Positions 1-38,611 of a stretch of DNA of 56,760 nucleotides are shown one piece after another (positions within the stretch are counted from its first letter, which is position 1; each line of letters begins with the position of its first letter). Below the pieces are notes generated by a model. It saw only the letters and a program-made list of their open reading frames with translations. It was not told where the DNA came from and made no database searches. The position numbers and the translations under genes are program-made. Source of the stretch: Candidatus Micrarchaeota archaeon (GTDB lineage: Archaea; B1Sed10-29; JAJSAI01); assembly GCA_964625085.1 (NCBI GenBank), contig CAZVAJ010000006.1, positions 2,812 to 59,571 on the forward strand. Reading direction: 5' to 3'.

Positions 1-44
1 CACGTGTTTTGTTTTCTTTTTCTCGCGCGTCATTTTTTGCCCGC

Positions 45-413
45 CTATTTTTCCATGAGCCCTTTGACCTTGCTCACCCCGGACATTACTGCTCCTGCTA
101 ATCCGCTGACTGCATTATCTGCCCAGTCCTTCTCCGTTTTGTCCTTTTCTTTGTACTTTAGTTCTATTTTTTCAGGGATCCTGTAAGGAGCTCCTCTTTT
201 GGATTCTATTACTATGGGCTCAAGCTGTTCATAATCTGCTTTTTTCTCTTTTTCAGAGGCTTTTGGCTCTGGAAGCAAGGCGTACAAGCTGCAGAAAACC
301 ATTGTTACCATCCCAAACGAGGGGTATCCTGAGCTCGCTAGAACATACCAGAAGAACGCGCCCATCAGGAATGCCCAGAACTTCATAATAATCACTCTTA
401 TTTGAATAACCAT
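45..413 (-). CDS. small membrane protein, tandem paralog 3 of 3
   Basis: 122-aa ORF. Hydrophobic N-terminal half ('FWAFLMGAFFWYVLA', 'MVTMVFCSLYALL'), then a K/E-rich linker. 'EPIVIESKRGAPYRIPEKIELKYKEK' and the Gly-rich tail 'GLAGAVMSGVSKVKGL' align with the two upstream ORFs. Overlaps the upstream paralog by 16 nt. Confidence 0.55.
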   Translation of the reverse strand: MVIQIRVIIMKFWAFLMGAFFWYVLASSGYPSFGMVTMVFCSLYALLPEPKASEKEKKADYEQLEPIVIESKRGAPYRIPEKIELKYKEKDKTEKDWADNAVSGLAGAVMSGVSKVKGLMEK

Positions 414-739
414 TCTCCCAGTTTATACAGTCCTTTCCCGAGCGCGCCAACTCCCTTTGCTATGTTACTGGCACCCCTGTACGGGCCGTAATCCTTTGTT
501 TTGTATGTTATCTTGAACTTCGGTGGGTAAAGGTAGGGTGGTTCTCCTTCATCCTCGTATATGACTGGATGAAGCACTGTTTCTTCTTTCTCTTTTTTCT
601 TCATGATCTTTTTCTTTTCTGGCCAAACCGCTCCTGCCACGAGCAGTAGTATCCCTGCCCAGAACAGTATCCCGTACCCTGACAGGTACAGTGCAGCAAG
701 GCAGAGTGCCACTCCTGTTATTAAGACACCTGTTTTCAT
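398..739 (-). CDS. small membrane protein, tandem paralog 2 of 3
   Basis: 113-aa ORF. Two N-terminal hydrophobic helices, linker 'EKKKIMKKKEKEE', 'HPVIYEDEGEPPYLYPPKFKITYKTK' and tail 'AKGVGALGKGLYKLGEWLFK'. ATGA stop-start overlap with the upstream paralog. Confidence 0.6.
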   Translation of the reverse strand: MKTGVLITGVALCLAALYLSGYGILFWAGILLLVAGAVWPEKKKIMKKKEKEETVLHPVIYEDEGEPPYLYPPKFKITYKTKDYGPYRGASNIAKGVGALGKGLYKLGEWLFK

Positions 740-1065
740 TCAAACAGCTCCTTCCAAATTTTTCCGAACAGGTTGCCTACTGCTTTGCCAGTGGTTTCTC
801 CAGCAGCTTTCCAGCCGGCCTTTGGCTTTGCTGTTTCCACTATCTCTATTTCTTCAGGGTATATTGATTCTGGGCCTTCATACTTTCTTTTGACTATTAT
901 AGGCTGGACTTTTACGTTTGAGCCCTTTTTTGAGCCTTTTTTTGCAGTATCCTTTGACACTACTATAAGAATGACGGATGTGATGACTGCTGGAATAAGC
1001 AGGTTCTCAAGGTATGCTCCTGCTAGTACTATCACAAACGCTAGGATGAGCACGCTTGCCTTCAT
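736..1065 (-). CDS. small membrane protein, tandem paralog 1 of 3
   Basis: 109-aa ORF. Two hydrophobic helices, linker 'KDTAKKGSKKGSN', 'QPIIVKRKYEGPESIYPEEIEIVETAK' and tail 'GKAVGNLFGKIWKELFE'. Same architecture as the next two ORFs. Confidence 0.6.
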   Translation of the reverse strand: MKASVLILAFVIVLAGAYLENLLIPAVITSVILIVVSKDTAKKGSKKGSNVKVQPIIVKRKYEGPESIYPEEIEIVETAKPKAGWKAAGETTGKAVGNLFGKIWKELFE

Positions 1066-1072
1066 TTTCCGC

Positions 1073-1366
1073 TTACCCTCCTCCCAAGAGCCTCATTAGT
1101 TCAGGGGAGTAGTATTCTCCGCCTCCGCCTCCTTTCTTGGCAGAAGCGTACAACGCAATTCCTCCTATAACCATCAGGAATATCCACCAGTACTGCGCGT
1201 AACCCATGTACATCGCGATTACTGCCAGGACAGCCACTAAGGTTATTGTTATGCTTCTTGCTAGCACCACCATCAGAGCAAAAGTTACTATGAAAAGCCA
1301 GTCTATTCCCTGCTGCCAGGCAAGAAACGCTACTAGCAGGAGTATTATCACGGTCATTGGGTCCAT
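1073..1366 (-). CDS. small polytopic membrane protein with Gly-rich tail
   Basis: 97-aa ORF that is almost entirely hydrophobic (about 3 predicted helices). It ends in 'AKKGGGGGEYYSPELMRLLGGG'. No recognisable family. Confidence 0.5.
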   Translation of the reverse strand: MDPMTVIILLLVAFLAWQQGIDWLFIVTFALMVVLARSITITLVAVLAVIAMYMGYAQYWWIFLMVIGGIALYASAKKGGGGGEYYSPELMRLLGGG

Positions 1367-1378
1367 GAGATCATCCCA

Positions 1379-2492: not shown

Positions 2493-2846
2493 TCAGAACT
2501 TTTTGAACCTTGGGCTTGCCCAGAAGCCCTGCAGTCCAAAGATTATCATTCCAGAGAGCATGTATGCCATGATAATGTACGTTGACCATACCCCTGCTGT
2601 CACTGGCAGTAATCTTATTCCAAAAATATAGAACAGGATGCCTGTAATAATGTACGTTGTTATTCTTGTTCCTATGACCATCCTCACGAAGCTGTATATA
2701 ATGACCAGGATGTAAAACTGGAAGAGTATCCGGAATATTGGGACAGTGAGGATGGCGGCGGCCATCCCGCCTATTATGACAATGAAAATGAGCGCAAGGA
2801 TTATGAAAGGAAGTATGAAAAACCCCCTGCTTTTTTCCAGGATCAT
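2493..2846 (-). CDS. small polytopic membrane protein
   Basis: 117-aa ORF with about 4 hydrophobic helices. ATGA-type 4-nt overlap with the upstream ORF. Confidence 0.55.
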   Translation of the reverse strand: MILEKSRGFFILPFIILALIFIVIIGGMAAAILTVPIFRILFQFYILVIIYSFVRMVIGTRITTYIITGILFYIFGIRLLPVTAGVWSTYIIMAYMLSGMIIFGLQGFWASPRFKKF

Positions 2847-3250
2847 CTTAGCATTGCCCTCCTTCTGCTTGCTGCAGACTTGCCAGTGTCTGGAGGCAGT
2901 TCGCCTCCGGCTGTTGCCATTGGGCCAGCGATTGACAGGTCATACAATACCATTGTGAACCCGAACGCTATCAGGAAGTAAACGAACATTATGGGCCCGA
3001 ACAAGTTCCAGTACTGGAACAACATCAGGTACCCGAGTATTAGCACTATTGCGGTTATTACCGGGCCTCCTTCAAACCTGCTTCTGACGAACGAGATTAT
3101 GAACAGGAGCACGATGAGCTTGAACCCGAACCACATAAGGTTCCACTCATCCTGCAGCCCAAACGACCTAAGCAGGCTGTCAGTAAAGTCTGTCACTATC
3201 CCTAACACGACCAGCGCGTTCACGTTCAGCATTACAAACAAAAAGAGCAC
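2843..3250 (-). CDS. small polytopic membrane protein with basic C-terminal tail
   Basis: 135-aa ORF with about 4 hydrophobic helices. The tail is 'GGELPPDTGKSAASRRRAMLR'. Confidence 0.55.
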   Translation of the reverse strand: MLFLFVMLNVNALVVLGIVTDFTDSLLRSFGLQDEWNLMWFGFKLIVLLFIISFVRSRFEGGPVITAIVLILGYLMLFQYWNLFGPIMFVYFLIAFGFTMVLYDLSIAGPMATAGGELPPDTGKSAASRRRAMLR

Positions 3251-3268: not shown

Positions 3269-4213
3269 CTATGTCAGGGTGAACTCGCCGTGATCCCTGA
3301 ACTCAGGAGTTTCAGTTATTGGAGGGACCTCAATATGCTCAGGGGGCACGAAGGTTATTTGTTTAGAAAGCTTGCCGTTTTGGCAGTGATACTTTTCTGG
3401 CTCTTCTTCATTCCCTGAAGTGCTTCCGCTAGTAATGATTGCCTTGAACGTTCCATAATCATGATCATACTCTAGTACTACTTTTACGCCATCTCCTGCC
3501 AAAGAGTCAGTGTACCTTGTTACGATTACACTGTCTACCTCACTACACTTCGTGCCCTCGATGCTGTTTTTAGTTACTCCTTCCCAGATATTGCTTGTGT
3601 CGTCAACCCAGCCTTGCACATTAGTGTCCAGGCAGGCTGACAAGCGTTCCGTGGGGGTGAACGAGATGACCTGTTCTGTACTACTCTCAGGATCTTTTGT
3701 GTGCACTGACATTGCCTGCTTCACGTCCTGGTCTTTAAACCCTGAGGGTAAAACGCTTGCACAGTATTTCCCATTTTCCGCAATTATACTTATTACCTCT
3801 TTTCCTTGAAGGCTTTTACTAATCTCTTCTTTCTTGTCTAAAAAAGCTGTGTCATCCTGCAGTTCTTGTATTCCCAAAGAACTCCTAAGCGCTTCTACTC
3901 CTTTTAACACTGATCTATCCTTAAGGCTGCTCTTGAACGCAGGCCCGGTGAAGTAATATTGTAGGCCTGCTGCATCGCCGGTGTACTTAGAATTCACTTT
4001 TTCTTCCAACATTTCTTTGAGCACGCTTATCATGCCAACATCATAAGTGGCCTTGACTATCTTCGCTTGCACGTAATCCCGGGTGACAATGGAACTGAAA
4101 GAAAGTGATCTGGAAGCCCGAATATCATTCTGCACCATCATTGTCGCGAGAGAGATAGCAAGGATTATAAGGGTGGTGCCCACAAGGGGCGTGAAAAGAG
4201 AAAAGCCTTTCAT
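3269..4213 (-). CDS. secreted/anchored protein with class-III (prepilin-like) signal peptide
   Basis: Starting at ATG 4213 the N-terminus is 'MKGFSLFTPLVGTTLIILAISLATMMV' ([KR]G followed by a hydrophobic helix). AAAGGAG lies 10 nt upstream. An alternative start is ATG 4240, which forms an ATGA overlap with the stop of the giant gene. The remaining ~290 aa are Ser/Thr/Asp-rich and soluble. Confidence 0.6.
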   Translation of the reverse strand: MKGFSLFTPLVGTTLIILAISLATMMVQNDIRASRSLSFSSIVTRDYVQAKIVKATYDVGMISVLKEMLEEKVNSKYTGDAAGLQYYFTGPAFKSSLKDRSVLKGVEALRSSLGIQELQDDTAFLDKKEEISKSLQGKEVISIIAENGKYCASVLPSGFKDQDVKQAMSVHTKDPESSTEQVISFTPTERLSACLDTNVQGWVDDTSNIWEGVTKNSIEGTKCSEVDSVIVTRYTDSLAGDGVKVVLEYDHDYGTFKAIITSGSTSGNEEEPEKYHCQNGKLSKQITFVPPEHIEVPPITETPEFRDHGEFTLT

Positions 4214-4236
4214 CTTCAAGACGCTCCTTTCTTGCT

Positions 4237-7200
4237 TCATGATGTTGCTTGTGAGACATAATTGTCCGAATCCCTGTACCCTTGTCCAAACTCATCATTC
4301 TTGTCAGGAAGTTTTGCGCAATAGTATACCTGAAGACCGTGTGACATAACACCCATCCGCGGGAATTCTCCTTCTGGGCATGAGATGCACATTCCGTCGT
4401 TGCCTGTGGCGTGGCAGGCGTTTTCTCCTGAACACACCCCTGCAAATATTTCGTCATCGCATCTTCTGCTTGCTTCGGAGTAGCAGACATCTCCTGCATC
4501 ACAGTACACAACAGACTGTTTAACATTGGGCCAGTCACAGCATCCTGTGCCCCATACTCTGTGCTTTTCACATTTTCCAGAATACTTCTTTCCGCACACT
4601 TCTCCAGACTTGTCGCTACTGGGCTCTTCAGTCTCAGCGTCAGAAGGATATTCCAAGCCTATCCTGTAGTCAGTTGACCAAAGATGACCAACCCACCCTG
4701 GCGAGAACTCTTCTGTAGCAAGATCCGTGTAACCAATTGCTGCGGCAGGGAATTCAACCTCTTTTTCCCCTGCACTGTACTTTACTCTTATGAACCCGTC
4801 GGTCGTGAACATGTAGTCTCCTGAACCTTCTTCAGGCTTTGCAGTTACTGTAACGTACGCTACCATCCTTCCGTTCGTGTCAAGCTTGCACGTAGTTCCT
4901 TGACTGCACGTGTCTTCGTCTATCTTGTCTCCTGATCTTCCGTACGCGACCGCAGTAAGCTCTGATACCGGAATTGTTACTTCTTTCTTGCCTATTAGGT
5001 CGTACCCGAGATTGTACAGGGTTGTTGACCCCAGCTTGAAGTTAGACACTTCTGTCCCGGTGTCTGTCGTGTACTCTGTCGGGACTATGATCTTGCTCGG
5101 GTAAGAATTAAGCGCGAACACTGCTGTTGGGTCACTGCCTGCAGCCTGTGATGAACCGTCCCCTATGACTGTTTTTGGTTCAGGGTCAAAGAACCAGGTG
5201 CACTTCTTTCCTGGGAGCACTTTCGTGCTTCCAGGGGTACTGCTGGCCTGCAAGAAGCTTACCTTGCTCTTGCCAGTGTCAAGGTACTTGTATCCTTTTA
5301 GTCCCATGTTCTCCGCCAAGCTCTTGTCTATGCTTGACAGTTCACCGTCCACTGCTTTTATGCTGACCACTACTTTTCCTGGCCGGATTGCAGTAAGACC
5401 ATTGTTATCCAAGTCTATTCCAGAGTACGAGAAAGCAGCAGCCACAGGGGAAGTGCAGTCCCAGTACTCGTTGTCAATTGGCTTGAGCTTGAACGCGTAC
5501 GTTTTCTGTTCTCCTGTTACATAACCCTCTTCTATCACTTTTGTAAGGTCTGAGATGCTCGCGTCAGGGAACTTGAACACCAGCAGTTTTTCTCCTTCTC
5601 CGCTTACTTTCAAGTGCTCTTCATCTTCATTGTCGCCTGTTTGTGCGAAGGTTATCAGGCTATTAGCGTTTTCTTTCTTTTTGTCTCCAGGTACTGAAAT
5701 GTACACTTTTCCACGGCCTTCCCACAGGACCGCAGTGTTCTCGGGCAGCATCCATTCTGTGTTAAGGTTCACTCCCGCAAACCTTGCTTTGTAGTCAGAG
5801 GTGCTTGTGCTTTCTGGATCATACCTTTTGTTGCTGAAGCTTTCCGGCGAGTCAATCCAACCAATAATACTGCTGAAAGGAGTGCTTCCAGGTTCAGCAT
5901 ACTCTATCTTAAGGTCTTTAAGGCTTTCTAGTTTAAGCGTGTCAATAAGCAGGCTGTTAAAGTTTTCGCTGACTGTGTCCTCTGGAATGTTTTTGTTCAG
6001 CCAGACAGTGAACGTTCTTCTGGGCACTATTATCTTGTGTTCGCTGTCGTACTGCAAGGTACTCGTTCCCTCAAAGTATGTGTTAAGGTGGTCCAGCATT
6101 TCAGATAATTCTGCCGTACTTGTTCCTATCACATGAACTTTGTGGTTATCATCAACATACACTGCTGGCAGGGCTCCTGCAGGCATGCTTGTTGTTCCCA
6201 TGTGCTTTATCATATCCTGGCATGCTTTGTCTTCTGCTTTCTTGCACTCTTCTATTACCAGTTCATGCTCCCACTTGCTGCTTTTTCCTGCGTCCCTGCC
6301 TAATGAAATCCAGTCTTCAGGATACACGGTATCCTGAGGTATGCTCCAGGCGTTTTTCAGCATTTCTATTGCTTTTTCTTTTAACTTGTCCTGAGAGTCT
6401 GACACGGCTACTGTTATAAGCGTGTTGTACGTTTCAGGAGCCTCTTCCGCGAAACTACTTTCCAGATCAACAGGCAAGAACAGCGCAAACCTTTCCTGAA
6501 TATCATCATCAGTCAGTTCGGATAAGGACTGCGTGTTAAAGCACGCCACGCTCCAACTCTTATCACTTCCTGTTACTGGAAGTGTTTCGATGGTCAGTTC
6601 CCCGGTTCCTATTTCAGGCAGGCAGGACTTTTCTTCCACTTTGTCAGTGAAGCAGAGTTCGGCAAAAGGCTCTTTGTTTGGATCGCATGTTGCGTACAGC
6701 TCGTCAAGGCTTTTACTCTCTTTTACTTCTGCACCTTGAGAAGTGTAGTAGTCAATAATTTCTTGAGCAATGTTCTTGTACGCGTTAGTGAATTCTTCAG
6801 GCACCAGCGTGTAATAAACTGTGTTAAAGTTAGCCTGGTTATAAAGCAGAACCTGTCTTAGGTTGCACATGTGGGATGAGCAGTCGATCTTGTCAGAGTC
6901 AGTCATCTTAAAGTGTGGTTCAAAGTTCCCGTACTCTGTTGGCACTAAGGTTAGTCCTTCTGTACTTATTTCTTGCTCTTCTTTGCTCTCGAGCGTTAGC
7001 GGGACTTCAAGCTTTTTCTGTTTCTTTATTCCATTGCCTTGAAGCGTAAGATTGAGGGAGATGTTTCCTTTACGTGTTTCTCCAGGCAACAGTTCTTTGC
7101 TGAAGTCTATCTCAAACGTTACTGTGTCACTATACCCGTCATTGTCAGCATCTTCTGTGTAAGGTTCTGTTTTAAGAGCGCATGCCAACGGGTCTCCTTC

Positions 7201-10200
7201 TTCTCTTTCTAAGCAGTGCACTTCTTCTGAACTTCCCTCAAACGGTTCTGTGTACCACACGTCCAGCGAAAGCCCGGCACTTGTGCTAATCCCCACTCCT
7301 TGGTTCTTGCACTGCTGGATGAGCGGAACTTCCATTGAAACTTCTTCTGCCTCTTCTGTCGGCGTTGCCACACTTACTTTATTAAGGCCTTTTGGCAGGC
7401 TGCTTTCAGAACACGCGAGTACACTGATCTCTGAAGAAACACCTCCCTGTCTGAAGTACTGTTTTCCGTCATTGTCTGTCTTGCTTGCCACGGTCAGGGT
7501 GTACTCTCTTGGCCCTGTGAACAGTTCTTTGAAGGGGTATTCTCTGTACGTGTTTTCCACTGCAAAGTCCTGCTTGCACTGTGCTGCAAAGTTGGTTATA
7601 TCAGGGTACTCTTCTGATGGGTACTTGCAAAGGGTTTCTCTCTTCTCGTTAGAGATTGTTGCAGAAGAAACCTGCTGGGCAACAGGAAGAATCTGCTGGT
7701 TGAAAACAGCGGGATCAGTTGTTAACACGGTTGTTTTTATGAGATTACCTGTTCCTTCACCAAGGTACTCGGAACATCCTCCTATAATAGTGTCAGTAGT
7801 GTCAGTAACACAGACTTCTTTTCCGTTTGAGTCAACAACCTCCGCGTATAATATCAGCGCTTTCCCCTCCTTTTTGAGGTCGAGCAAGGACTGGTATCCG
7901 CTGCTGTCCGTGAGAATGACTGTTTTTATTGTATCTTCTCTGCCTTGCCCGAACAGTTCTTTCCCATAGTTCTGCCAGCAGTCAGCCAGGTTAAGCAAGA
8001 TATTATTATTTTCATCTGTTGCCAGGTCCTGGGCTGGCAGAGTGCACACATTCTTCCCGTTCGGGTCTGTTATCGTAACCTTGTCTACGTATTCTTCCAG
8101 GTACTCTGCAATGTTTTTGCCAGTGTTCCTGTCCATAATGCTTATTTTTATCTGGCCGGAAAATTCTGTTATTTCATCTTCGTCTAATATCTGAAGTTCT
8201 GGGTAAAGCGCGCCGCCTACTTCTCTGTAATACTCTCCAAGTTTCGTATCATCTGCTTTCAGTGTATAGTGCATGTTCCCGTAGAACTCAGGGGTTATGC
8301 TGACGCTGACGGTCATGTTTGTTAGTCTGCCCTTGACAAATTCTATGCTGTAGCTATTAGTATTCTCTTCTACGCTTAACACGGTTTCTGGGTTAGTGTC
8401 TTCTGCAGAGCCTTCTGTTGATATCTCTGCTGTTCCATCATACTCTAAGGAGATTTTTGGTGCTGTTGCGATGTCTCCCAGTGGGAAGATGTTAGCTTTT
8501 AGCACAGGTTTCTCAATAAACTGCACTGTTTTTGTGGCATCGTACGGTTTTTCCGTGACTCCTCCGTTTTCTATCCACATTTTCCAGCATATCTGTTTCT
8601 CAGAATCGCATTCCACTTCTTCTTCGTAGTCCACGTTTTCTGCAGTTACCTTAAGTGTGAAAGTCCTGTCTCCTACATTTATTGTTATGTCTCCTGTCCC
8701 GTCAGAAACAGCGTATAAAGGGAACACTACGCGCAGCCTGTCCCTGAATCTTATTCCTTGTTCTGTGGTGCTGCGGGAGTAATCTCCTTTCTTTACGCTG
8801 AACTCAGACCAGGTGTTTGCAATGCTTCCTGTTGTCTTGTCAATGTTTGATACGTCTAGGGAGGTTCCTTCAGGCATGGTCACCTGCACGCTTATCTTGT
8901 TATTCTCATCTTCCAGTAGCGCAGTAGAACCTGAAGCCTGCACTTTCAGCTGGTCAGTTAGCAAGCCTGTTCCATAATACCCTATTTCTAGCGCTACTTC
9001 TTTCGTTTTCCCTTCACTCATTATTATACTCCAAGGCGCTTCCTTAAAGCTTGAGATCTTAAACTCTGCAGCAGGCCCAAAGCTTGCTGTTTGTCCCAGC
9101 GTGACCGGATAGGGTCCTGCATTCCCGGTTATCATACCTCCTTCGCACGAGAGGTTTATTGCAAGCCCTGCCACATTGTTTCCTGTTGGTATGCGGGTGC
9201 CGGCAGGCAGGACAAGGTGAAGCGCTCCGTTGTAATACTCTGGCTGTCCAGCATATATTGTGCTGAATGTAAGGTGCCTGCCTCCTTTTACTACCTGCAC
9301 TTCCATCCAAGGCTCAGAACTGCAGGCTGCGCTGATGCTAGCGCTCTTTAGCTTTCTTCCTTTGTGCTCTTCGTTTACCCAAGTACCTACTATTATGCTA
9401 TCGCCAAGGTTCTGTGAAGCCTGGGTGTTAACAGGGTTTATGCTTATGCGTGTTTCGGTCTCAGCATACGCTTTCAGGCACACGTTGTCTATGCACTGTT
9501 CTTCAGGCAGGTTTTCTTTTGTCACGCGCAGGAGCACAGGGCTTGTTGCACTTGCAAAATTGTTATCGTCTTTTTTTATGTGTATGTTCGCGTCTCCTGG
9601 AAGCCAGCCTTTTCCTACTGCTATGAAAGTGTAAGAGGCGTCAGGGTTATTGAACGATATCATGGCACTTGTTTGGCTGTTGTCGTCTGATTTTTCCAGC
9701 GTGTATTCTGTTACTTTTCCAGCAGGGTATTCTGAATCAACCCGAGAGAACCGCACGTGATTCTCTGTTTCTCCAGCGTTTATGCTGAACTGCTCGCTTG
9801 AGTAGTATCCTGGAAGGGGAGAGATGGTGGTGCTTACAGTGAACTCTTGTTCAAAAGAAATGCTAGGCTTTTCTGCCGGAGGATAAGTTTGCCCTTCTGA
9901 TATTAGTACTGTGCGTTCCATGAGCCCGTTTTCCTCGTCGCAGACGAAGGTTCCTTTTTCCCAGTCAGACGTTTCGTAGTCTTCAGGGTTTTTGCATACT
10001 ATCCTGGAGAGCACGATGGTTAGAGACTTGAACGCGACACTGTCTGATCCTATGTTCAAGCTTATTACAGCTTCTGTGTTGTTTTCCAGGACATTGTTCA
10101 CTTTGAACGGCGCCCAAATTTCTACTGTCTCGCCGGTTAGTATACCGTAATCTTCAGGGTCATCACTCCTGCGGCAGTATGATAAGAAGCTTGCTGTTGT

Positions 10201-18027: not shown

Positions 18028-18082
18028 GGAAAAGAAAACGTTTAAAAACAACCCATCGCTTCTTATACCAAGGTGATGATGT

Positions 18083-18520: not shown

Positions 18521-18539
18521 GTGCAGGAGGATAAATATT

Positions 18540-18683: not shown

Positions 18684-18720
18684 AAAAACCCTTTTATACT
18701 CTGCTAGTTTTACTCTAAGC

Positions 18721-19272: not shown

Positions 19273-19274
19273 TC

Positions 19275-19784: not shown

Positions 19785-19794
19785 GGGTGATGGG

Positions 19795-20223: not shown

Positions 20224-20228
20224 TTCAT

Positions 20229-20717
20229 GTGAAAAAAGGTCAGGCTGCTGTCATGGACGGGCTTATTCTGGTGCTTGTGATTTCAGGAGCAGTCACTATG
20301 CTCGTCCTTGTTTCAGGAATGTACGCTGCAAGCACAAGGAACCAGGTGCTTGGGTCTTACTCGTACGAGTACGCTGGTAACGCTCTTGTGGCCCTGCACT
20401 ATGCCAGAGACAGTGACGGAAACTGGTTCTGGCTGCAGCTTGAAGAAAAAAGAGAGTCCTCTGACCCTAGCGGGGACACAGAAGATTATCTGAAAGCCAA
20501 TCTTGATTTAATTGAAAAGATCAGTGCAAGCTCGCCTGCTGGCACGAATCTGTTGTGCTTTTCCAGCTCAGGCTCGTTTTCAGACTGCTATAACCTGAAC
20601 AATAACGGAGAAAGTTTAAGCCCGTTGCCTGATCCTGTGTGCGGTCCAGGATCTAACGCTTACTCTTACACCAGTTTTATTGGCGATGAAAAAATTTCAT
20701 TTATCCTGTGCTACTAG
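20229..20717 (+). CDS. prepilin-like protein (KGQ type)
   Basis: Starting at GTG 20229 the N-terminus is '(M)KKGQAAVMDGLILVLVISGAVTMLVLV'. The longest ORF (20202) overlaps the previous gene. Confidence 0.6.
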   Translation: MKKGQAAVMDGLILVLVISGAVTMLVLVSGMYAASTRNQVLGSYSYEYAGNALVALHYARDSDGNWFWLQLEEKRESSDPSGDTEDYLKANLDLIEKISASSPAGTNLLCFSSSGSFSDCYNLNNNGESLSPLPDPVCGPGSNAYSYTSFIGDEKISFILCY

Positions 20718-26022: not shown

Positions 26023-26552
26023 CCTGCATAAACGCCTGAATTAGGCACATATGGGTTATAATAGTATACTTCAAAGTATAAAGAGTTAACCAGTATCCAT
26101 GCTGCCAACAGTGACAGTAGCAGGCCAGAGAGAAGGAATATCACGAGCAGGCTCATGATTGGTTCAGGCAGTTTCATTCTTCTGTTTAGCCAGCTTGTTA
26201 GTTTATCTCCTATGAACCTGCCCAATAACCCTAGTACCAGGAAAATCCCGAAAAGAGGCATGCTGAAGCTGATCTTTCCAGTTCCGAGCAGGTACCATAT
26301 GCTTAGAACAGTGTACAGCAGTACTGCAGAGCACACAGGCTCTAAGATACTGCTGCTGACTTTTGTTTTTAATTCTGTTACTTTTATGGCCTTTTTTATG
26401 AGGGTTGAAGAGGCCCATGCAAGGACCGTGACGAGCGTGATCCCTAGCAGCAGGTCAAGAACGCTTCCGTACGCCAGGGTGTTCACAACAGTGTAAAGAA
26501 TTGTTCCAAGAGGATCCCTGGCCAGCGTGAAAAGGTAATCCATATAAATCAA
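26016..26552 (-). CDS. polytopic membrane protein, unknown function
   Basis: 178-aa ORF (TTG start; first ATG at 26543) with 4-5 hydrophobic helices. It is the first gene of the operon that continues into the Cys-rich and 1495-aa genes. Confidence 0.6.
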   Translation of the reverse strand: MIYMDYLFTLARDPLGTILYTVVNTLAYGSVLDLLLGITLVTVLAWASSTLIKKAIKVTELKTKVSSSILEPVCSAVLLYTVLSIWYLLGTGKISFSMPLFGIFLVLGLLGRFIGDKLTSWLNRRMKLPEPIMSLLVIFLLSGLLLSLLAAWILVNSLYFEVYYYNPYVPNSGVYAGW

Positions 26553-34731: not shown

Positions 34732-35627
34732 ATCCCTACTGGCTTGCTTCCTTCTATCATGAACATGAATCCTGCTGCCATGACTGGTATTAGGATATAA
34801 ACGAATATTGCGAACAGCACGTTCATGGGTATTCCTATGTTTGTCATTGACCCCATTACTGTTACCATTATCACGAATAGTATGGGGCCTGCTACGAATA
34901 GGGTTATGTATATTTCGGCCATTAGGCTGAGCGTGTCAAGGTACTGTGACTCAACAATCCTCCTTTTTTCCATGAGCTCTTTTGCTTTTCCTACAAGGTA
35001 CTGTCTTAGGTCTCCGCCTGAACGGATTATGGTCACTATTCCCCATAATAAATCCTTGAAGCTTGGGCTTGGGGTCTTGCCTGCGGCTTCTGCTAGGGCG
35101 GTTGTTACGTCATAACCGAATACTTCAATGTTTCTCGCAATTCTCCTGCATTCTTTTGCGACTTCTCCGTACTCTTCAAAGTTTCCCATGAGCTTGAAAA
35201 CAAGCTGGATGGGAACGCCTGTGCCTGCCACGGTTGCCATGTGAGTGACCGCGTACGGCAGGTTAACCTCAATGTTTCTTTTCAGGTTGTCTTTTGCGTA
35301 GCTTGGGTACACTAGGAAGAATACTATCACGCTGCCTGTTGAAATAAATGAGAATAGCATGGACATTAGGAATGCGGCGGATGGAGCAAGCTGTATTACA
35401 TGCAGGAACAGGAAGTTGAACGCCAAGAAAAAGAAGGGTACTGAAAGAACGCAGGTTAACAGCATGCTTGACAGGTATTCTTCAGGGGTTATGTGTAGTC
35501 CTGCTTTTTTGAGGGCTGGTTTTAGGTCTGTTCTGTACTTTTTTGGGAAAAACGTTTCGATGATTCTGCTTCTTGTGAAGATTCGGTACGCAATGACTCT
35601 GTATGATCGGTTTAGGAAGGGCATCAT
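34728..35627 (-). CDS. FlaJ/TadC-type platform protein, first half
   Basis: T2SSF-like domain 'LPYAVTHMATVAGTGVPIQLVFKLMGNFEEYGEVAKECRRIARNIEVFGYDVTTALAEAAGKTPSPSFKDLLWGIVTIIRSGGDLRQYL' plus TM helices. ATGA overlap with the ATPase gene. Confidence 0.7.
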   Translation of the reverse strand: MMPFLNRSYRVIAYRIFTRSRIIETFFPKKYRTDLKPALKKAGLHITPEEYLSSMLLTCVLSVPFFFLAFNFLFLHVIQLAPSAAFLMSMLFSFISTGSVIVFFLVYPSYAKDNLKRNIEVNLPYAVTHMATVAGTGVPIQLVFKLMGNFEEYGEVAKECRRIARNIEVFGYDVTTALAEAAGKTPSPSFKDLLWGIVTIIRSGGDLRQYLVGKAKELMEKRRIVESQYLDTLSLMAEIYITLFVAGPILFVIMVTVMGSMTNIGIPMNVLFAIFVYILIPVMAAGFMFMIEGSKPVGM

Positions 35628-37549
35628 TTTTTCAATTTCCCTCCATACACTTCTTCGAGTACTGATATGGGGTCTTTGTAGTATCTTGCGACTATATTAC
35701 CGACTTCTTTATAGTGCCTGATTCCTTTTTTCCTCATCCAGTTTAGTATGTCCTCTCTTCTTTTCAGTTCTTCCCACACGCTCTTTTCAGGAATGCCCTT
35801 CTCTTCTATTATGCTGTTTATCACGTGGCTTTGGTCTGATGAGAACTCGTAGTAGTCTTTTGACGGGACCCACTTGAACAGCGTGTTTGTTATCAGTTTT
35901 CCTGTTTTGAAGTCTACCCCTACAACTTCTATTAGTGATTTTATTCTTCTCACGTCAACTCCCTTTATGCGTGAGTGCTGGAGTATGATTATTATGTCAA
36001 GGTGTTGAAGCAGTCCTGGAGAAAGGTTTATGGGTGGCGTGATCAGCCTGTTGACTACTGCTTCGAAGGATTCTGCGTGCAGGGTCGCCATTCCAGGGTG
36101 GCCGGTTGCCATTCCTTGGAACAGCACGTATGCTTCTTTACCCCTCACCTCTCCCACGATGATTTCTTCAGGCCTTTCTCTTAACGCGGCTCTCAGCAGG
36201 TCAAACATGCTTACAGATCCTCTTTCTGTAGGGCCATAGCCCGGTCTTGCTACTTTTGCTATCCAGTGTTCGTGAGGGAGCCTGAGCTCTGGAGTGTCTT
36301 CTATGCTTACTATTTTTGTTTCAGGGTGTAGGAAGAGGCACAGCGCGTTAAGCAGGCTTGTTTTTCCTGTTGCGGTCCCTCCGGACACAAGAATTGAGTT
36401 TCTGAATTCTATTGACAGCCAGAGGTATGCTCCAATGGTTGCTGGCAGGGTGCCGTAGTTCATGAGGTCTACTACTGTTAGGGGATCTTTGGTGAACTTT
36501 CTTATCGTGAAAGTGCTTCCTCTCATTGCAATGTCTCCGCCTGCAGAGAACGTGGCCTGAACCCTGCTTCCGTCAGGAAGTGCTCCGTTCATCAGGGGTT
36601 CTGCGATTGAGATGTGTTTCCCGCACCTTTGGGCCAGTTTAATTGTGAATGAGTTTAGTTCGTCAGGATCAGTGAACATTATATTGGTTTTCAGGGATCC
36701 GTACTTTCTGTGGAACACGTATATGGGGATGTTGACCCCGTCGCAGGAAATATCTTCTATGTTCTCGTCCTGCATTAACGGTTCTATCTTTTCCAGTCCA
36801 AGAAAGTCCCTGTACACGTAGTATAGTATTTTATTGTACGTGACTTCAGTCAGCCGTATGTCATAGTCTGAGATAATCTGGTCAAGTTTGTCTTTTAGGT
36901 ATCCCTTCACTTTTGACGGGTCTTTTATTTCCATTAGGTTTATGTCAAGGAGGTCTATTACCAGGTCCTTTATTCTCGTCAGGTTTTCTGCTTCTTCTTT
37001 TGTTAGGGGTGGTTCTAGTACATAGTAGTTCAGTTCATGTGCTTTCTCGTTCCATTTTATTACAGCATAAGCGTACGGTTCTATGAGGGGGTATCTCACG
37101 TCTATTGTTTTCAGTTCAGGAGGCTTCCATTGTGAGGGTATCACCCTCCTTTTCTCTTCTTTCGGGAGTTTGTGTTCTTTGAAGGGCATGCCCCTGACTT
37201 TCTGAGCGCCTTCTGTTTCTTCTTCTCTTTTTATCTCTTCAGTTACTTTGGGAAACTCTATCACTACAGGCTTTTTGGATTCTGGTTTCTTGCTTTTAGT
37301 CTTTTTCACGCCGCCTATTTTCTCTTTTATGTCCTCCACTCTTTTTTCTTCTATTTCCTCTCCTGTTATCCTCTGAAGTTCTTTTAGGTAGTCTGTTTCA
37401 GATACTGTTTCTGCCTCTCCTTTTGCCCATTCAGGATACTCTTCTTCAACTCCCACTTTGGCCATTTTTACCCATTTGCCTACTTTCTCCTCTTCTGGCG
37501 CCGGCCACTCGCGCAATAGTTTCCTGAGTTTGTTTTTAGACAGAGGCAC
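35624..37549 (-). CDS. FlaI-like archaeal type-IV-filament assembly ATPase with K/E-rich N-terminal extension
   Basis: ATPase motifs: Walker A 'VSGGTATGKTSLLNAL', 'IVSIEDTPELRLPHEHW', Walker B 'IIVGEVRGKEA' and 'GHPGMATLHAES'. The FlaI-type N-domain 'YPLIEPYAYAVIKWNEKAHELNYYVLEPPLTKEE' is present. GTG start with a G-run 5 nt upstream. Confidence 0.9.
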   Translation of the reverse strand: MPLSKNKLRKLLREWPAPEEEKVGKWVKMAKVGVEEEYPEWAKGEAETVSETDYLKELQRITGEEIEEKRVEDIKEKIGGVKKTKSKKPESKKPVVIEFPKVTEEIKREEETEGAQKVRGMPFKEHKLPKEEKRRVIPSQWKPPELKTIDVRYPLIEPYAYAVIKWNEKAHELNYYVLEPPLTKEEAENLTRIKDLVIDLLDINLMEIKDPSKVKGYLKDKLDQIISDYDIRLTEVTYNKILYYVYRDFLGLEKIEPLMQDENIEDISCDGVNIPIYVFHRKYGSLKTNIMFTDPDELNSFTIKLAQRCGKHISIAEPLMNGALPDGSRVQATFSAGGDIAMRGSTFTIRKFTKDPLTVVDLMNYGTLPATIGAYLWLSIEFRNSILVSGGTATGKTSLLNALCLFLHPETKIVSIEDTPELRLPHEHWIAKVARPGYGPTERGSVSMFDLLRAALRERPEEIIVGEVRGKEAYVLFQGMATGHPGMATLHAESFEAVVNRLITPPINLSPGLLQHLDIIIILQHSRIKGVDVRRIKSLIEVVGVDFKTGKLITNTLFKWVPSKDYYEFSSDQSHVINSIIEEKGIPEKSVWEELKRREDILNWMRKKGIRHYKEVGNIVARYYKDPISVLEEVYGGKLKK

Positions 37550-37982
37550 AGTATCCCCCCAGTGTTATGCTCCAGGTTCCATTGTTTTGTGCTTTTATGC
37601 ATGTTTCTCCTGGGCTGAGTTCTCCGTTAAAACTAAGCCCACTGCAGTTTAAATTATCTGATGCCGTGAAGTTTTCACTGCTGCCCAGAACAGTTGCTAG
37701 GATCATGACCGTGTTATTGTTCCTGCACTGTGCGCTTATCCTGTATTCTCTTTCAAGGTTCGGGAGAGAAACTCTTGATTCATAGTACGTTTGATTGTTT
37801 CTTGTGATCATTATCGCGTTCAGCACTATTTCTTGCACCTCTTTTGTTATGTCTTCCATTACTATCTCCCTCTGTACTGCTTTCATATCTTGTACGTGGG
37901 CATTGAAGACAAACCACACGCTTACGGTCATGGACATTAATAGCACAATCCTTAGCACCATTCCAACACTGAATACAGCCAA
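37536..37982 (-). CDS. N-terminally anchored protein (pilin-like accessory?)
   Basis: 148-aa ORF with an N-terminal hydrophobic helix 'VGMVLRIVLLMSMTVSVWFVF'. No clear [KR]G cleavage motif. It sits between the pilin and the ATPase. Confidence 0.45.
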   Translation of the reverse strand: MAVFSVGMVLRIVLLMSMTVSVWFVFNAHVQDMKAVQREIVMEDITKEVQEIVLNAIMITRNNQTYYESRVSLPNLEREYRISAQCRNNNTVMILATVLGSSENFTASDNLNCSGLSFNGELSPGETCIKAQNNGTWSITLGGYCASV

Positions 37983-37995
37983 TTTTCAACCTCCT

Positions 37996-38589
37996 TTAGC
38001 ATAAGTCTACTGAAAGCACGGGCTTTCCTGCCGTGATATTAACTTTTCTGAGCACGATTGTAGTGCTGGGGCCTGTTTTTCCTTTAGCGCAGTTTCCTCC
38101 CCACACGATGTCCACATTAGGCAAGCATACTGAAAATTCTATTTCTCCTGGTCCAGGACCTGCTGCTCCTTGGTATAATGTCTGATACTCATTAACACGG
38201 TACATTGTTATTCCAGTAGTGTTGTCAAGAAGGTAATCGTAACCACAGCTCTCGTTAGCGCTTCCGTTTGCTTTTCCTATGACTGTTGCTTCTTGGGTGA
38301 GGGTCAGGGTAATGCGGTCGTGGTCAGGGTCTACCAGTAGGTACGGGCTGACATAGTTGTGAGTGGGGTGGTAGAAGTACACCCTGCTGGTAAAGTTCTC
38401 ATCGCCTCTTGCGGTTTCTTTCATTATGTTTTCAAGCGTGGCCATTTGGTTGTAGTATCCTTTTATTCTGCCTTCTTCTCCCAGCCCTTCTATGCTGGCT
38501 GACGCCCACGTGTATGTGGCGATAGTGAATATAACAAGCAGTGCGATTGATAGTACGAATGACACGGTCGGAGAAACTCCCTTTTGCAT
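37996..38589 (-). CDS. archaeal type IV pilin-like protein (Pilin_N / former DUF1628-type N-terminus)
   Basis: Starting at ATG 38589 the N-terminus is 'MQKGVSPTVSFVLSIALLVIFTIATYTW'. This closely resembles the conserved 'KGVSPVI..VLL.AI.V' archaeal pilin N-terminus. It is the first gene of the cluster. Confidence 0.7.
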   Translation of the reverse strand: MQKGVSPTVSFVLSIALLVIFTIATYTWASASIEGLGEEGRIKGYYNQMATLENIMKETARGDENFTSRVYFYHPTHNYVSPYLLVDPDHDRITLTLTQEATVIGKANGSANESCGYDYLLDNTTGITMYRVNEYQTLYQGAAGPGPGEIEFSVCLPNVDIVWGGNCAKGKTGPSTTIVLRKVNITAGKPVLSVDLC

Positions 38590-38611
38590 AAACACTTAAA
38601 AACAATGCGGA

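What the first reader, a model, noticed from the sequence alone, without database searches (positions are those of the whole stretch)
1..38595. 38-kb envelope super-locus: two giant surface proteins, a mini-archaeosortase and three type-IV-filament machines
Seen in sequence: almost every gene from 1 to 38595 encodes a membrane, secreted or filament-assembly protein. The block contains:
- A 2810-aa N-anchored protein.
- A 1495-aa protein with a Sec signal and a sortase-type C-terminus.
- An archaeosortase-family protein.
- Three VirB11/FlaI-family ATPases (13274-15547, 30167-31849, 35624-37549).
- Five T2SSF-type platform ORFs.
- At least twelve ORFs with class-III (prepilin-like) N-termini.

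Established knowledge: each part is known individually. Archaeal type IV pili, archaeosortase processing of C-terminal signals, and giant adhesin-like proteins in small-genome episymbiotic archaea have all been described.

Inference: this density suggests one integrated attachment or cell-cell-contact apparatus rather than unrelated loci. I know of no characterised system with this composition.
Basis: partly seen in the sequence, partly recalled or inferred. Interest (0 to 1): 0.8.

Follow-up and report, generated by a model that had tools for sequence, protein, structure and literature searches.

The report
Conserved DPANN cell-surface gene super-locus
A small symbiont-type (DPANN) archaeon keeps about 40 kb of cell-surface genes together: three pilus-type motors, a miniature archaeosortase, and two huge surface proteins that share a rare anchor motif. 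The same arrangement recurs in related genomes, and none of it has been studied experimentally.

Summary
Positions 1-38595 encode:
- three FlaI/GspE-type ATPases and five T2SSF platform proteins
- about ten solid prepilin-like ORFs
- a 177-183-aa archaeosortase-family protein with an invariant Cys/Arg/His
- a 2810-aa N-anchored giant protein
- a 1495-aa Sec-exported protein with a motif-TM-basic C-terminus

The source is a Micrarchaeota/Iainarchaeota-type DPANN archaeon.

Synteny splits the block into three modules.
- **Module A:** giant, archaeosortase | ATPase, platform, six pilin-like genes. It is conserved across both phyla.
- **Module B:** DUF192, ferredoxin-fused ATPase, two T2SSF genes, PAC2. 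It has no pilin genes.
- **Module C:** PilB3-like ATPase, two T2SSF genes, pilin-like genes. It is optional.

Two long contigs (module A ATPase 66-67% identical) are collinear with nearly the whole block. A-B linkage recurs in at least nine other genomes. Elsewhere the modules are separated.

Three features appear to be new:
- an archaeosortase subfamily that passes no named NCBIfam model
- a [LIV]PxxP-TM-basic C-terminal sorting signal
- a family of giant proteins (487 representative clusters) defined by a conserved ~60-aa N-terminal domain ending in IPS[LF]P plus a TM helix

Functional integration of the whole block remains an inference.

The parts
45..1366 (-). Four small N-terminal-TM proteins (122, 113, 109 and 97 aa). 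Three are paralogues. They form the distal end of the giant-protein operon.
   Evidence: TM prediction; sequences. The order is the same downstream of the giant gene in L173 (31-41% id) and partly in L003-L007.
2493..3250 (-). Two small polytopic membrane proteins (117 and 135 aa), co-oriented with the giant gene.
   Evidence: No Pfam hit. Conserved after the giant gene in L002-L007 (34-91% id) and in L173.
3269..4240 (-). 323-aa prepilin-like protein (N-terminus ...MKG|FSLFTPLVGT...).
   Evidence: Class-III-like N-terminus. Its homologue lies between the archaeosortase and giant genes in L003, L005-L008, L015, L017 and L173.
4237..12669 (-). 2810-aa giant surface protein. It has a conserved ~60-aa N-terminal domain, one TM helix, a CarboxypepD_reg domain, and then a fast-evolving, Cys-paired ectodomain with no C-terminal anchor.
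   Evidence: The N-domain family has 487 representative clusters. Full-length members are 1204-3597 aa.
12526..12669 (-). N-terminal domain of the giant protein (aa 1-48), ending in GIPSLP directly before the TM helix.
   Evidence: Consensus Y..[IL]EDKW[FY]..LD.LD.KG[IV]PVY...DP[IL]E..GIP[SA][LF]P in 26 loci. The motif is present in 124/150 representatives. No Pfam or NCBIfam model matches.
12708..13259 (-). Mini archaeosortase/exosortase-family protein (183-aa ORF; 177 aa from the ATG at 13241). It is divergent from the ATPase gene, with start codons about 30 bp apart.
   Evidence: TIGR04178 38.7 bits (cutoff 23). All named subfamilies score far below cutoff. C83, R125 and H145 (ORF numbering) are invariant in 48/48 sequences. 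It lies upstream of the ATPase in 47/80 loci.
13274..15547 (+). Module A ATPase (757 aa), FlaI/archaeal GspE type, with an extra N-terminal domain of about 200 aa.
   Evidence: AF2 model pLDDT 77. Foldseek finds FlaI 4ii7 and afGspE 2oap at E 1e-22 to 1e-23 over about 540 aa. Orthologues are 50-87% identical in 328 species genomes.
15531..17597 (+). Module A platform protein (688 aa, two T2SSF-like halves).
   Evidence: Weak Pfam T2SSF hit at aa 448-576. Aa 105-233 resemble the 399-aa T2SSF protein. Orthologue present in 64/80 loci.
17623..20717 (+). Six prepilin-like ORFs (134, 145, 183, 169, 142 and 171 aa).
   Evidence: [KR]G|Q/L/F followed by a hydrophobic stretch at the N-terminus. Three of them are recognisable in 33-41 of 80 loci.
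20714..25201 (-). 1495-aa Sec-exported protein with a tripartite C-terminal sorting signal. No known domains.
   Evidence: A syntenic family of 1035-1671 aa is present in relatives.
20717..20818 (-). C-terminal signal LPSVPEG-NAG-TM-RELARKRKQG (aa 1462-1495).
   Evidence: The family consensus is [LIV]PxxP[EQK..]-TM-basic. No NCBIfam CTERM model fits. The motif is rare in the window: 4 hits in 18,751 aa.
25198..26552 (-). A 274-aa Cys-rich secreted protein with a C-terminal TM + RRRRR tail, and a 178-aa polytopic membrane protein. Both lie upstream in the 1495-aa operon.
   Evidence: A homologue of the 274-aa protein is present in L082.
26592..27158 (+). 188-aa double Zn-ribbon protein, a conserved convergent neighbour at the end of the pilin operon.
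   Evidence: Present in 22/80 loci directly after the pilin-like genes. Also in L082, L170 and L172.
27155..28814 (-). Flavin reductase, DUF473 and PAC2. These are cytoplasmic genes, but they are syntenically fixed downstream of module B.
   Evidence: Pfam. PAC2 follows the two T2SSF genes in nearly all relatives examined.
28856..32231 (-). Module B: DUF192 (31893-32231), ferredoxin-fused ATPase (30167-31849) and two T2SSF proteins (29632-30240, 28856-29635). It has no pilin genes of its own.
   Evidence: The ATPase family (precomputed PF27713 UCP018868) is widespread in Micrarchaeota and Iainarchaeota. Gene order is conserved.
32239..38595 (-). Module C: two N-terminal-TM/pilin-like ORFs (37996-38595, 37536-37982), a PilB3-like ATPase (35624-37549), two T2SSF proteins (34728-35627, 33532-34731) and three small ORFs (33056-33526, 32640-33176, 32239-32652).
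   Evidence: The same set lies between UppS and DUF192 in L170, L084/85, L086, L168 and L169. It is absent in L037, L090, L092, L083 and L172.
38653..40331 (.). UppS (cis-prenyltransferase) and geranylgeranyl-reductase-like genes, the conserved boundary of the block.
   Evidence: Pfam. Same position in L170, L084, L090, L092 and L037.

Best explanation
The block is a vertically inherited cell-envelope gene neighbourhood of a Micrarchaeota/Iainarchaeota-type DPANN archaeon. It is built from three separable modules.

**Module A is the conserved core.** A FlaI/GspE-type ATPase with an extra N-terminal domain, a double-T2SSF platform and six prepilin-like subunits most likely assemble a type-IV-pilus-like filament. 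The prepilin peptidase must be encoded elsewhere in the genome.

**The mini-archaeosortase is transcribed divergently from the module A ATPase.** It most likely acts like Haloferax ArtA. It would cleave the [LIV]PxxP-TM-basic C-terminal signal of large Sec-exported proteins, here the 1495-aa protein, and re-anchor them, probably to lipid.

**The 2810-aa giant sits directly downstream of the archaeosortase.** It is a signal-anchored, fast-evolving ectodomain protein and a candidate host-contact fibre. Its conserved ~60-aa N-terminal domain ties it to conserved machinery.

**Modules B and C are neighbouring but independent machines.** B is a ferredoxin-fused ATPase with two T2SSF proteins and no pilin genes. 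C is a PilB3-like adhesion-pilus set.

**Shown versus inferred.** Gene content, catalytic-residue conservation, sorting-signal anatomy and synteny are shown. Filament assembly, the archaeosortase-substrate pairing, lipid anchoring and any role in host contact are inferred.
For: - **Domains:**
- **Origin:** DPANN origin and 50-87% identical module A ATPase orthologues in 328 species genomes.
- **Module A synteny:**
  - Platform in 64/80 loci and pilin-like genes in about 40/80.
  - Archaeosortase in 47/80 loci, and in 32/43 loci with at least 6 kb of flank.
  - Giant N-domain gene in 26 loci, 24 of them within 3 kb of the archaeosortase.
- **Archaeosortase:** Cys/Arg/His invariant. The generic signature is matched by 34/34 orthologues.
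- **Sorting signal:** the tripartite C-terminal signal is conserved in the syntenic ~1.5-kaa family and in unrelated large proteins of these loci.
- **Motif rarity:** [LIVM]PxxP occurs 4 times in 18,751 aa of window ORFs. Two of those flank the anchors of the two giant proteins.
- **Module independence:** the three ATPases are 24-33% identical. Module C is absent in several relatives, and module B never has pilin genes.
- **Divergence versus the closest relative:** ATPase 87%, platform 71%, archaeosortase 61%, giant 36%, 1495-aa protein 30-34%. This pattern fits exposed, interaction-driven surface proteins.
- **ArtA precedent:** PMC6098224.
Against: - There are no expression, proteomic or imaging data.
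- No prepilin peptidase is in the window, and no pilin Pfam model matches.
- The archaeosortase is adjacent to the giant protein, which has no C-terminal signal, and not to the 1495-aa protein. That is atypical for dedicated mini-sortases.
- The 1495-aa family could not be followed in the large databases, because the word-filtered search returned only the query itself.
- The archaeosortase is missing near the ATPase in 11 of 43 well-flanked loci.
- A single-sequence model of the archaeosortase was unusable (pLDDT 55).
Confidence: 0.6

Rival explanations
1. All three ATPase/platform sets, the archaeosortase and both giant proteins form one integrated attachment or cell-contact apparatus, and they are co-regulated and interdependent.
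For: - The block is almost fully collinear in two contigs whose module A ATPase is 66-67% identical.
- A-B linkage persists at 52-60% identity.
- In L166 the module A ATPase and platform run straight into the module B ATPase on one strand.
- Module B has no pilin genes and might borrow those of A or C.
Against: - The ATPases are ancient paralogues, each with its own platform genes.
- Module C is dispensable, or replaced by a giant gene.
- In most of the 80 loci no module B gene lies within 10 kb of module A.
- The strands and operons differ, with cytoplasmic genes in between.
Confidence: 0.2
2. The neighbourhood has no functional meaning. Independent envelope operons sit side by side only because of shared ancestry in compact genomes.
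For: Modules separate in more distant relatives, and cytoplasmic genes (PAC2, flavin reductase, DUF473) are interspersed.
Against: - The divergent archaeosortase-ATPase pair and the archaeosortase-giant adjacency persist across two phyla, while other flanking genes of the window are found in only 0-2 of 80 loci.
- A-B linkage survives rearrangements (L166, L037, L080).
- The two giant proteins share a rare anchor motif.
Confidence: 0.15
3. The real partner of the mini-archaeosortase, or of the module A machine, is the giant protein. Its conserved N-terminal IPS[LF]P-TM anchor would be recognised and docked, or processed. That would be a sorting signal at the N-terminus.
For: - The giant gene is the immediate neighbour of the archaeosortase in 24 of 26 loci.
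- The N-domain is conserved while the ectodomain diverges.
- The motif matches the C-terminal [LIV]PxxP signal and is otherwise rare.
- ArtA can process a non-C-terminal tripartite signal (PMC6098224).
Against: - The topology is opposite. The motif should lie on the cytoplasmic side of a signal-anchor helix. No basic cluster follows the TM, and the N-tail is acidic.
- There is no precedent for this.
- About 10 archaeosortase-positive loci with enough flank lack a giant N-domain gene.
Confidence: 0.2
4. The 1495-aa protein is the main cell-surface (S-layer-like) protein, anchored by the archaeosortase as in Haloferax. The pili and the giant protein are unrelated to that function.
For: - It has a Sec signal, a length of about 1500 aa and a tripartite C-terminal signal.
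- It holds a fixed syntenic position yet diverges rapidly.
- The SLG/ArtA precedent.
Against: - No S_layer_N or other S-layer domain is detected.
- The experimentally identified Micrarchaeum harzensis S-layer protein is a different 101-kDa protein with S-layer domains (10.1101/2021.04.28.441871).
- N-glycosylation sequon density is low, 0.27 per 100 aa.
Confidence: 0.25
5. Module C (35624-37549 and neighbours) is an archaellum.
For: The ATPase scores 411 bits on the NCBIfam FlaI model.
Against: - That score is below the 550-bit cutoff.
- No FlaH, FlaG/F or archaellin domains are found.
- There are two split T2SSF genes instead of FlaJ.
- A PilB3_C domain is present.
Confidence: 0.03

Closest known systems
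Haloferax volcanii archaeosortase ArtA with PGF-CTERM substrates (S-layer glycoprotein)
   Same: - A polytopic membrane enzyme of the exosortase/archaeosortase family with conserved Cys/Arg/His-type residues.
- Its substrates are Sec-exported proteins with a motif-TM-basic C-terminus.
   Different: - The enzyme here is miniature (177-191 aa) and matches only the generic signature.
- The motif is [LIV]PxxP rather than PGF, and no NCBIfam CTERM model fits.
- It is genetically coupled to a type-IV-pilus-like operon and to a giant N-anchored protein.
- The lineage is DPANN, whereas the 2018 review describes archaeosortases in a subset of Euryarchaeota.
Archaeal type IV adhesion pili (H. volcanii PilB3/PilC3, M. 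maripaludis Epd, Sulfolobus Aap/Ups) and the two T4P loci reported in the micrarchaeon Mia14 (PMC5498576)
   Same: - A FlaI/GspE-family ATPase, T2SSF platform and class-III-signal subunits.
- Large surface proteins are linked to T4P loci in Mia14 as well.
   Different: - The module A ATPase carries an extra N-domain of about 200 aa and is 50-87% conserved across two phyla.
- The platform is a 688-aa fusion.
- The module B ATPase is fused to a 2x[4Fe-4S] ferredoxin domain and has no pilin genes.
- An archaeosortase is part of the locus.
Archaellum motor FlaI/FlaJ
   Same: FlaI is the best structural match for the module A ATPase (4ii7) and the best NCBIfam match for the module C ATPase.
   Different: There are no FlaH, FlaG/F or archaellin genes, and scores fall below the equivalog cutoff.
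Giant surface proteins of episymbiotic archaea (e.g. SPEARE proteins of Nanohaloarchaeota, from my own knowledge; LamG proteins of Mia14)
   Same: Multi-thousand-residue, fast-evolving ectodomain proteins in small-genome DPANN archaea, presumed to mediate host contact.
   Different: - This family is defined by a conserved ~60-aa N-terminal domain ending in IPS[LF]P plus a TM helix, followed by a CarboxypepD_reg domain.
- It has no detectable repeats, protease domains or LamG domains.
- It sits in a fixed position next to an archaeosortase.
Bacterial Tad/CpaF pilus ATPases
   Same: CpaF is among the best PDB sequence matches for the module A ATPase. Database annotations call the module B family CpaF/TadA-like.
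   Different: The context is archaeal, the platforms are split T2SSF genes, there is a ferredoxin fusion, and no Tad-specific components (RcpA, TadZ) are present.

Membership tests
Exosortase/archaeosortase superfamily | Match to the family signature above the curated cutoff | tested here: met
   TIGR04178 scores 38.7 bits (cutoff 23) and PF09721 scores 27.1 (cutoff 25.7). All 34 orthologues tested match TIGR04178.
Exosortase/archaeosortase superfamily | Conserved catalytic-type Cys, Arg and His in a polytopic membrane protein | tested here: met
   C83, R125 and H145 (with E88, N122 and W164) are invariant in 48/48 sequences. About 5 hydrophobic helices are predicted.
Exosortase/archaeosortase superfamily | Cognate proteins with a tripartite C-terminal signal (motif, TM, basic tail) in the same genome | tested here: met
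   The 1495-aa protein carries the signal, and its syntenic family shares [LIV]PxxP-TM-basic. Actual processing was not testable.
Named archaeosortase/exosortase subfamilies (ArtA-ArtH, pacearchaeosortase, XrtA-XrtY) | Score at or above the subfamily cutoff | tested here: not met
   The best window scores are XrtX 35.8 (cutoff 170), ArtD 34 (125), XrtH 32.8 (86) and ArtB 28.7 (150). Across 34 orthologues the best E-value is 3e-14.
Known C-terminal sorting domains (PGF-, PEF-, VPXXXP-, PIP-, Loki-CTERM and others) | Match to an NCBIfam CTERM model | tested here: not met
   The only hit is VPEID-CTERM at 12.9 bits against a cutoff of 33.
Archaeal type IV pilus-like system | GspE/FlaI/VirB11-family hexameric ATPase | tested here: met
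   There are three T2SSE hits. The module A ATPase model matches FlaI and afGspE.
Archaeal type IV pilus-like system | PilC/T2SSF polytopic platform protein | tested here: met
   Four ORFs score above the Pfam cutoff. The fifth (15531-17597) is weak in Pfam but homologous to the others and syntenically conserved.
Archaeal type IV pilus-like system | Subunits with class III signal peptides | tested here: inconclusive
   About 10 small ORFs have [KR]G followed by a hydrophobic N-terminus, and they are found only next to the ATPase and platform genes. No pilin model matches them.
Archaeal type IV pilus-like system | Prepilin peptidase (Peptidase_A24: PibD, FlaK or EppA) | tested here: not met
   None is found in the window by Pfam or by tblastn with the L084 enzyme. 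In the relative L084 the gene lies between UppS and the module C ATPase. Here it may lie elsewhere in the genome.
Archaellum | FlaI equivalog score, plus FlaH, FlaJ, FlaG/F and archaellins | tested here: not met
   The FlaI model scores 411 bits, below the 550 cutoff. No other archaellum domains appear in the Pfam scans.
Archaeal S-layer proteins (S_layer_N / TIGR01564 type, as in the Micrarchaeum harzensis S-layer protein SLP_Mh) | S-layer domain match | tested here: not met
   The 1495-aa protein has no Pfam, NCBIfam or PDB sequence hit.
Tandem-repeat giant adhesins | Internal sequence repeats | tested here: not met
   Neither giant protein shows any non-self BLAST hit between 120-aa fragments.

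The most novel reading that the evidence does not exclude
A lineage-specific surface-assembly pathway exists in Micrarchaeota and Iainarchaeota. In it, a new mini-archaeosortase subfamily is coupled to a type-IV-pilus-like machine. The archaeosortase recognises the same rare [LIV]PxxP-TM element in two contexts. One is the C-terminus of ~1.5-kaa exported proteins. The other, which is unprecedented, is the N-terminal signal anchor of 1.5-3.6-kaa giant proteins. On this reading, the giant host-contact fibres are mounted on, or handed to, the filament machinery.
Probability: 0.15. Interest if true: 0.85.

Novelty: new variant of a known kind. Interest (0 to 1): 0.6.

Why it matters
DPANN archaea live attached to host cells, but the genes behind attachment are largely unknown. 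This locus offers concrete, testable candidates:
- a pilus-type ATPase that is 50-87% identical across two phyla
- an undescribed archaeosortase subfamily together with its probable sorting signal
- a large, unannotated family of giant proteins that can be recognised by a short N-terminal domain

The N-terminal domain and the [LIV]PxxP-CTERM signal could be turned into family models. These would let surface proteomes be predicted in hundreds of uncultured genomes. The conserved gene order gives a rationale for targeted proteomics and cryo-ET in cultivated Micrarchaeota. In the paper library searched, no paper links an archaeosortase with these phyla.

Tried and rejected
- **Large-database search, 1495-aa protein:** the word-filtered search returned only the query itself. 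Its family could only be traced through synteny.
- **PDB sequence searches:** both giant proteins returned nothing.
- **Archaeosortase structure:** single-sequence AlphaFold gave pLDDT 55, which is unusable. No alignment-based run was possible, because only proteins returned by the search for homologous proteins may be submitted.
- **Metagenome scan with the ferredoxin-ATPase alignment:** Walker-motif patterns swamped it, and it gave only about 12 true orthologous loci.
- **Bacterial promoter/terminator scan:** not informative for an archaeon.
- **Repeats, tRNA and Rfam scans:** these found no repeats, tRNAs, RNA families or mobile-element boundaries, so the block does not look like an island.
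- **Pilin models:** Pfam on pilin N-termini gave no hit.
- **Association test:** I tried to relate archaeosortase presence to [LIV]PxxP C-termini per locus. It is not interpretable, because the loci are 20-kb fragments and not genomes.
- **Archaellum reading of module C:** rejected.
- **Class-III signal reading of the giant N-terminus:** rejected. It has Pro at +2, a 42-aa acidic leader, and K/R at -2 only inconsistently.
- **Makarova 2016 T4P census:** it does not mention ferredoxin fusions, sortases or DPANN.

Full report
**Gene content**

ORF listing and Pfam/NCBIfam scans give this map.

On the minus strand, 45-13259:
- four small N-terminal-TM proteins (45-1366)
- a nucleotidyltransferase (1682-2539)
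- two small polytopic membrane proteins (2493-3250)
- a 323-aa prepilin-like protein (3269-4240)
- the 2810-aa giant protein (4237-12669)
- a 183-aa exosortase/archaeosortase-family ORF (12708-13259)

Divergently, on the plus strand:
- a 757-aa T2SSE ATPase (13274-15547)
- a 688-aa platform protein (15531-17597)
- six prepilin-like ORFs (17623-20717)

Convergent with these, on the minus strand:
- a 178-aa membrane protein and a 274-aa Cys-rich secreted protein
- the 1495-aa protein (26552 down to 20714)

Then come:
- a Zn-ribbon protein (26592-27158, plus strand)
- flavin reductase, DUF473 and PAC2 (27155-28814)
- two T2SSF genes, a ferredoxin-fused ATPase and DUF192 (28856-32231)
- three small ORFs (32239-33526)
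- two T2SSF genes, a PilB3-like ATPase and two N-terminal-TM ORFs (33532-38595)

Beyond 38595 lie UppS, a GGR-like gene, PHP, an ATPase_2/DUF234 gene and a 14-kb glycan-synthesis locus.

**Checks of the individual claims**

- *Archaeosortase.* The ORF passes TIGR04178 (38.7 bits against a cutoff of 23) and PF09721, but no named subfamily. In an alignment with 47 orthologues, C83, E88, N122, R125, H145, F149 and W164 are invariant (confirmed on 34 sequences).
- *1495-aa protein.* It starts with a Sec-type signal peptide and ends ...LLSLPSVPEGNAG-IVFVLMIIASLAIA-RELARKRKQG.
- *Giant protein.* It has a 48-aa N-terminal segment, one TM helix, a CarboxypepD_reg domain (E 8e-16), 54 mostly paired cysteines, no C-terminal anchor and no detectable internal repeats.
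- *Class-III N-termini.* Twelve ORFs fit [KR][GA] plus a hydrophobic stretch. All lie in 1-38595, and none of the 17 ORFs beyond that point fits. About ten are convincing, and no pilin model matches any of them.
- *Prepilin peptidase.* None is present in the window.

**Origin**

The window is part of a 75-kb ENA metagenome contig. The module A ATPase has orthologues 50-87% identical to it, annotated as Micrarchaeota, Diapherotrites/Iainarchaeum or 'DPANN group'. A scan of one genome per GTDB species found relatives in 328 genomes. I fetched 80 loci with 10-kb flanks.

**Synteny of module A**

I searched the 80 loci with tblastn and iterated HMMs.

| Window gene | Loci with a homologue (of 80) |
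|---|---|
| Platform protein | 64 |
| Three of the pilin-like genes | 33-41 |
| Zn-ribbon gene (directly after the pilin-like genes) | 22 |
| Archaeosortase (upstream, opposite strand) | 47 |
| Most other window genes | 0-2 |

- The archaeosortase is found in 32 of the 43 loci with at least 6 kb of upstream flank. In 20 loci it lies within 200 bp of the ATPase gene.
- A gene starting with the giant protein's N-terminal domain is present in 26 loci, 24 of them within 3 kb of the archaeosortase.
- Because other window genes are rarely found, this conservation is specific to the module and not a general property of the neighbourhood.

**Synteny of modules B and C, and of the whole block**

The ferredoxin-fused ATPase family is widespread in the same phyla. 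Contexts came from 12 look-ups and tblastn.
- The core DUF192, ferredoxin-ATPase, T2SSF, T2SSF, PAC2 (often followed by flavin reductase) is nearly invariant. It never includes pilin genes.
- Module C lies between UppS/GGR and DUF192 in the window, L170, L084/85, L086, L168 and L169.
- In L037, L090 and L092, UppS abuts DUF192 directly. In L083 and L172 a giant gene of about 4000 aa occupies the place of module C.
- Contig Ga0373629_0000001 (1.08 Mb; module A ATPase 67% identical) reproduces the order of window positions 4237-40331 almost gene for gene, and carries two giant genes.
- Contig Ga0373628_0000003 (692 kb; 66% identical) reproduces modules A and B, the ~1.5-kaa protein and the small membrane proteins of window 45-3250. 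It lacks module C.
- A-B linkage is also seen in L002/L082 (87%), L009/L083 (60%), L019/L169 (56%), L168, L166 (57%; here the module A ATPase and platform run directly into the module B ATPase), L037 and L080 (52%).
- Conversely, only two of the 80 loci show module B genes within 10 kb of module A. In about 20 loci the Zn-ribbon gene is followed by genes not found in the window.

**The giant family**

- The first 48 residues are conserved, with consensus Y..[IL]EDKW[FY]..LD.LD.KG[IV]PVY...DP[IL]E..GIP[SA][LF]P-TM. The ectodomain is only 25-36% identical even in close relatives.
- An exhaustive HMMER search with residues 1-80 found 487 representative clusters at E <= 1e-3, and the match is always at the N-terminus.
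- The 85 full-length members among the best 150 are 1204-3597 aa long (median 2257). None has a C-terminal hydrophobic anchor, and the N-tail is acidic (median net charge -3).
- Sources name these proteins only 'hypothetical' or 'carboxypeptidase regulatory-like domain-containing' in Micrarchaeota and Diapherotrites.
- No Pfam or NCBIfam model covers the N-domain.

**The 1495-aa family and its signal**

BLAST recognises the family in only seven close loci. At the same syntenic position, more distant relatives carry Sec-signal proteins of 1035-1671 aa. Most of their C-termini share a [LIV]PxxP element a few residues before a TM helix and a basic tail: LPSIP, LPWTP, LPGVP, IPTRP, VPTIP, LPLFP, LPWAP.

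Apparently unrelated large proteins in L014, L021, L028 and L080 carry VPIRP, LPLRP or LPSLP in the same place.

No known CTERM model fits.

[LIVM]PxxP occurs only four times in the window's 18,751 ORF residues. Two of the four are the anchors of the two giant proteins. About 2% of hydrophobic segments in the 80 loci have the motif within 14 residues upstream.

**The ATPases**

- The three are 24-33% identical to one another.
- The module A ATPase model (pLDDT 77) matches FlaI (4ii7) and archaeal GspE (2oap) over its C-terminal ~540 residues. That leaves an extra N-terminal domain of about 200 aa.
- The module C ATPase scores 411 bits on the FlaI equivalog model (cutoff 550) and carries PilB3_C. 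No other archaellum component is present.

**Mechanism**

What is shown:
- the gene content
- the conserved catalytic-type residues
- the tripartite signal
- the modular but recurrent synteny

What is inferred:
- By analogy with archaeal T4P, module A assembles a filament from the pilin-like subunits.
- By analogy with ArtA and its PGF-CTERM substrates (PMC6098224), the mini-archaeosortase removes the TM-basic tail of [LIV]PxxP-CTERM proteins and re-anchors them.
- The giant protein is an N-in signal-anchored surface fibre. Its conserved N-domain binds a conserved partner: the archaeosortase, the ATPase N-domain or the platform.
- Modules B and C are independent neighbours.

The shared motif in two opposite topologies is unexplained. 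It is the basis of the most novel reading.

**Comparison with the literature**

- Micrarchaeon Mia14 was reported to have two T4P loci with linked large LamG proteins (PMC5498576).
- Pili-like filaments were seen on Microcaldus ARM-1 (PMC11329633).
- The Micrarchaeum harzensis S-layer protein is a different, 101-kDa protein.
- Archaeosortases were described in a subset of Euryarchaeota.
- No paper in the library links an archaeosortase with Micrarchaeota, Diapherotrites or Iainarchaeota.
- The 2016 archaeal T4P census does not cover these features.

**Verdict**

The parts are of known kinds, but three of them appear undescribed:
- the archaeosortase subfamily
- the [LIV]PxxP C-terminal signal
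- the N-terminal domain of the giant proteins

The conserved coupling of these to a pilus-like machine also appears undescribed. I classify the finding as a new variant of a known kind, with interest 0.6.

Noticed in passing
window 42503-56661: A glycan-biosynthesis locus: two epimerases, UDP-glucose dehydrogenase, a sugar nucleotidyltransferase, a Polysacc_synt flippase, six GT4 glycosyltransferases, a methyltransferase and a B12-binding radical SAM enzyme. From about 44 kb onward GC is 0.39-0.42, against 0.44-0.52 in the rest of the window. The locus may have been acquired horizontally and may glycosylate the surface proteins.
   Followed up: partly
window 30167-31849; L082-L085, L166-L172: A secretion ATPase fused to an N-terminal 2x[4Fe-4S] ferredoxin domain (precomputed PF27713 UCP018868). 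It is always flanked by DUF192 upstream and by two T2SSF genes plus PAC2 downstream, and it has no pilin genes. Its function is unknown. It is much less conserved than the module A ATPase (57% against 87% identity to the closest relative).
   Followed up: partly
window 26592-27158: A 188-aa protein with a disordered N-terminal half and a C-terminal double zinc ribbon. It is a conserved convergent neighbour at the end of the module A pilin operon in 22 of 80 loci. In L084 the same zinc ribbon ends a 520-aa membrane protein.
   Followed up: partly
P0054, P0055, P0100, P0116-P0118; L166 3214-7122: Several Iainarchaeota orthologues of the module A ATPase carry an intein with a LAGLIDADG endonuclease and are about 1260-1300 aa long. 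The window copy has none.
   Followed up: no
window 13241-13274: The archaeosortase and module A ATPase start codons are only about 30 bp apart on opposite strands, and a GGAGG sits 9 bp before the GTG start of the ATPase. The promoters must therefore overlap coding sequence or be shared.
   Followed up: no
window 26561-27025 (-): A 154-aa Ser-rich ORF lies antisense to the Zn-ribbon gene. It has no homologues and is probably not a gene.
   Followed up: no
L041, L054, L057: Contigs carrying this archaeal module are deposited in MAGs labelled Chloroflexi/Chloroflexota and Falkowbacteria. This is probably binning contamination.
   Followed up: no
L168 9734-9937; L169 9757-9966: A HicA toxin gene and a small partner ORF are inserted between DUF192 and the ferredoxin-ATPase in two relatives.
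   Followed up: no
window 1682-2539: A nucleotidyltransferase gene (NTP_transf_2) interrupts the operon of small membrane proteins. It is absent from the collinear operon in L173, so it is a local insertion.
   Followed up: partly
window 45-1065: Three tandem paralogous small proteins (122, 113 and 109 aa). Each has an N-terminal TM helix, a Lys-rich linker and a shared P[IV][IV]...Y/PP...G.G C-terminal pattern. They are conserved in L173, and their function is unknown.
   Followed up: no
L083 1-9637; L172 1-9618: In two relatives a giant gene of about 3900-4100 aa (with LamG/DUF2341 domains in L083) occupies the position of module C, directly upstream of DUF192.
   Followed up: no
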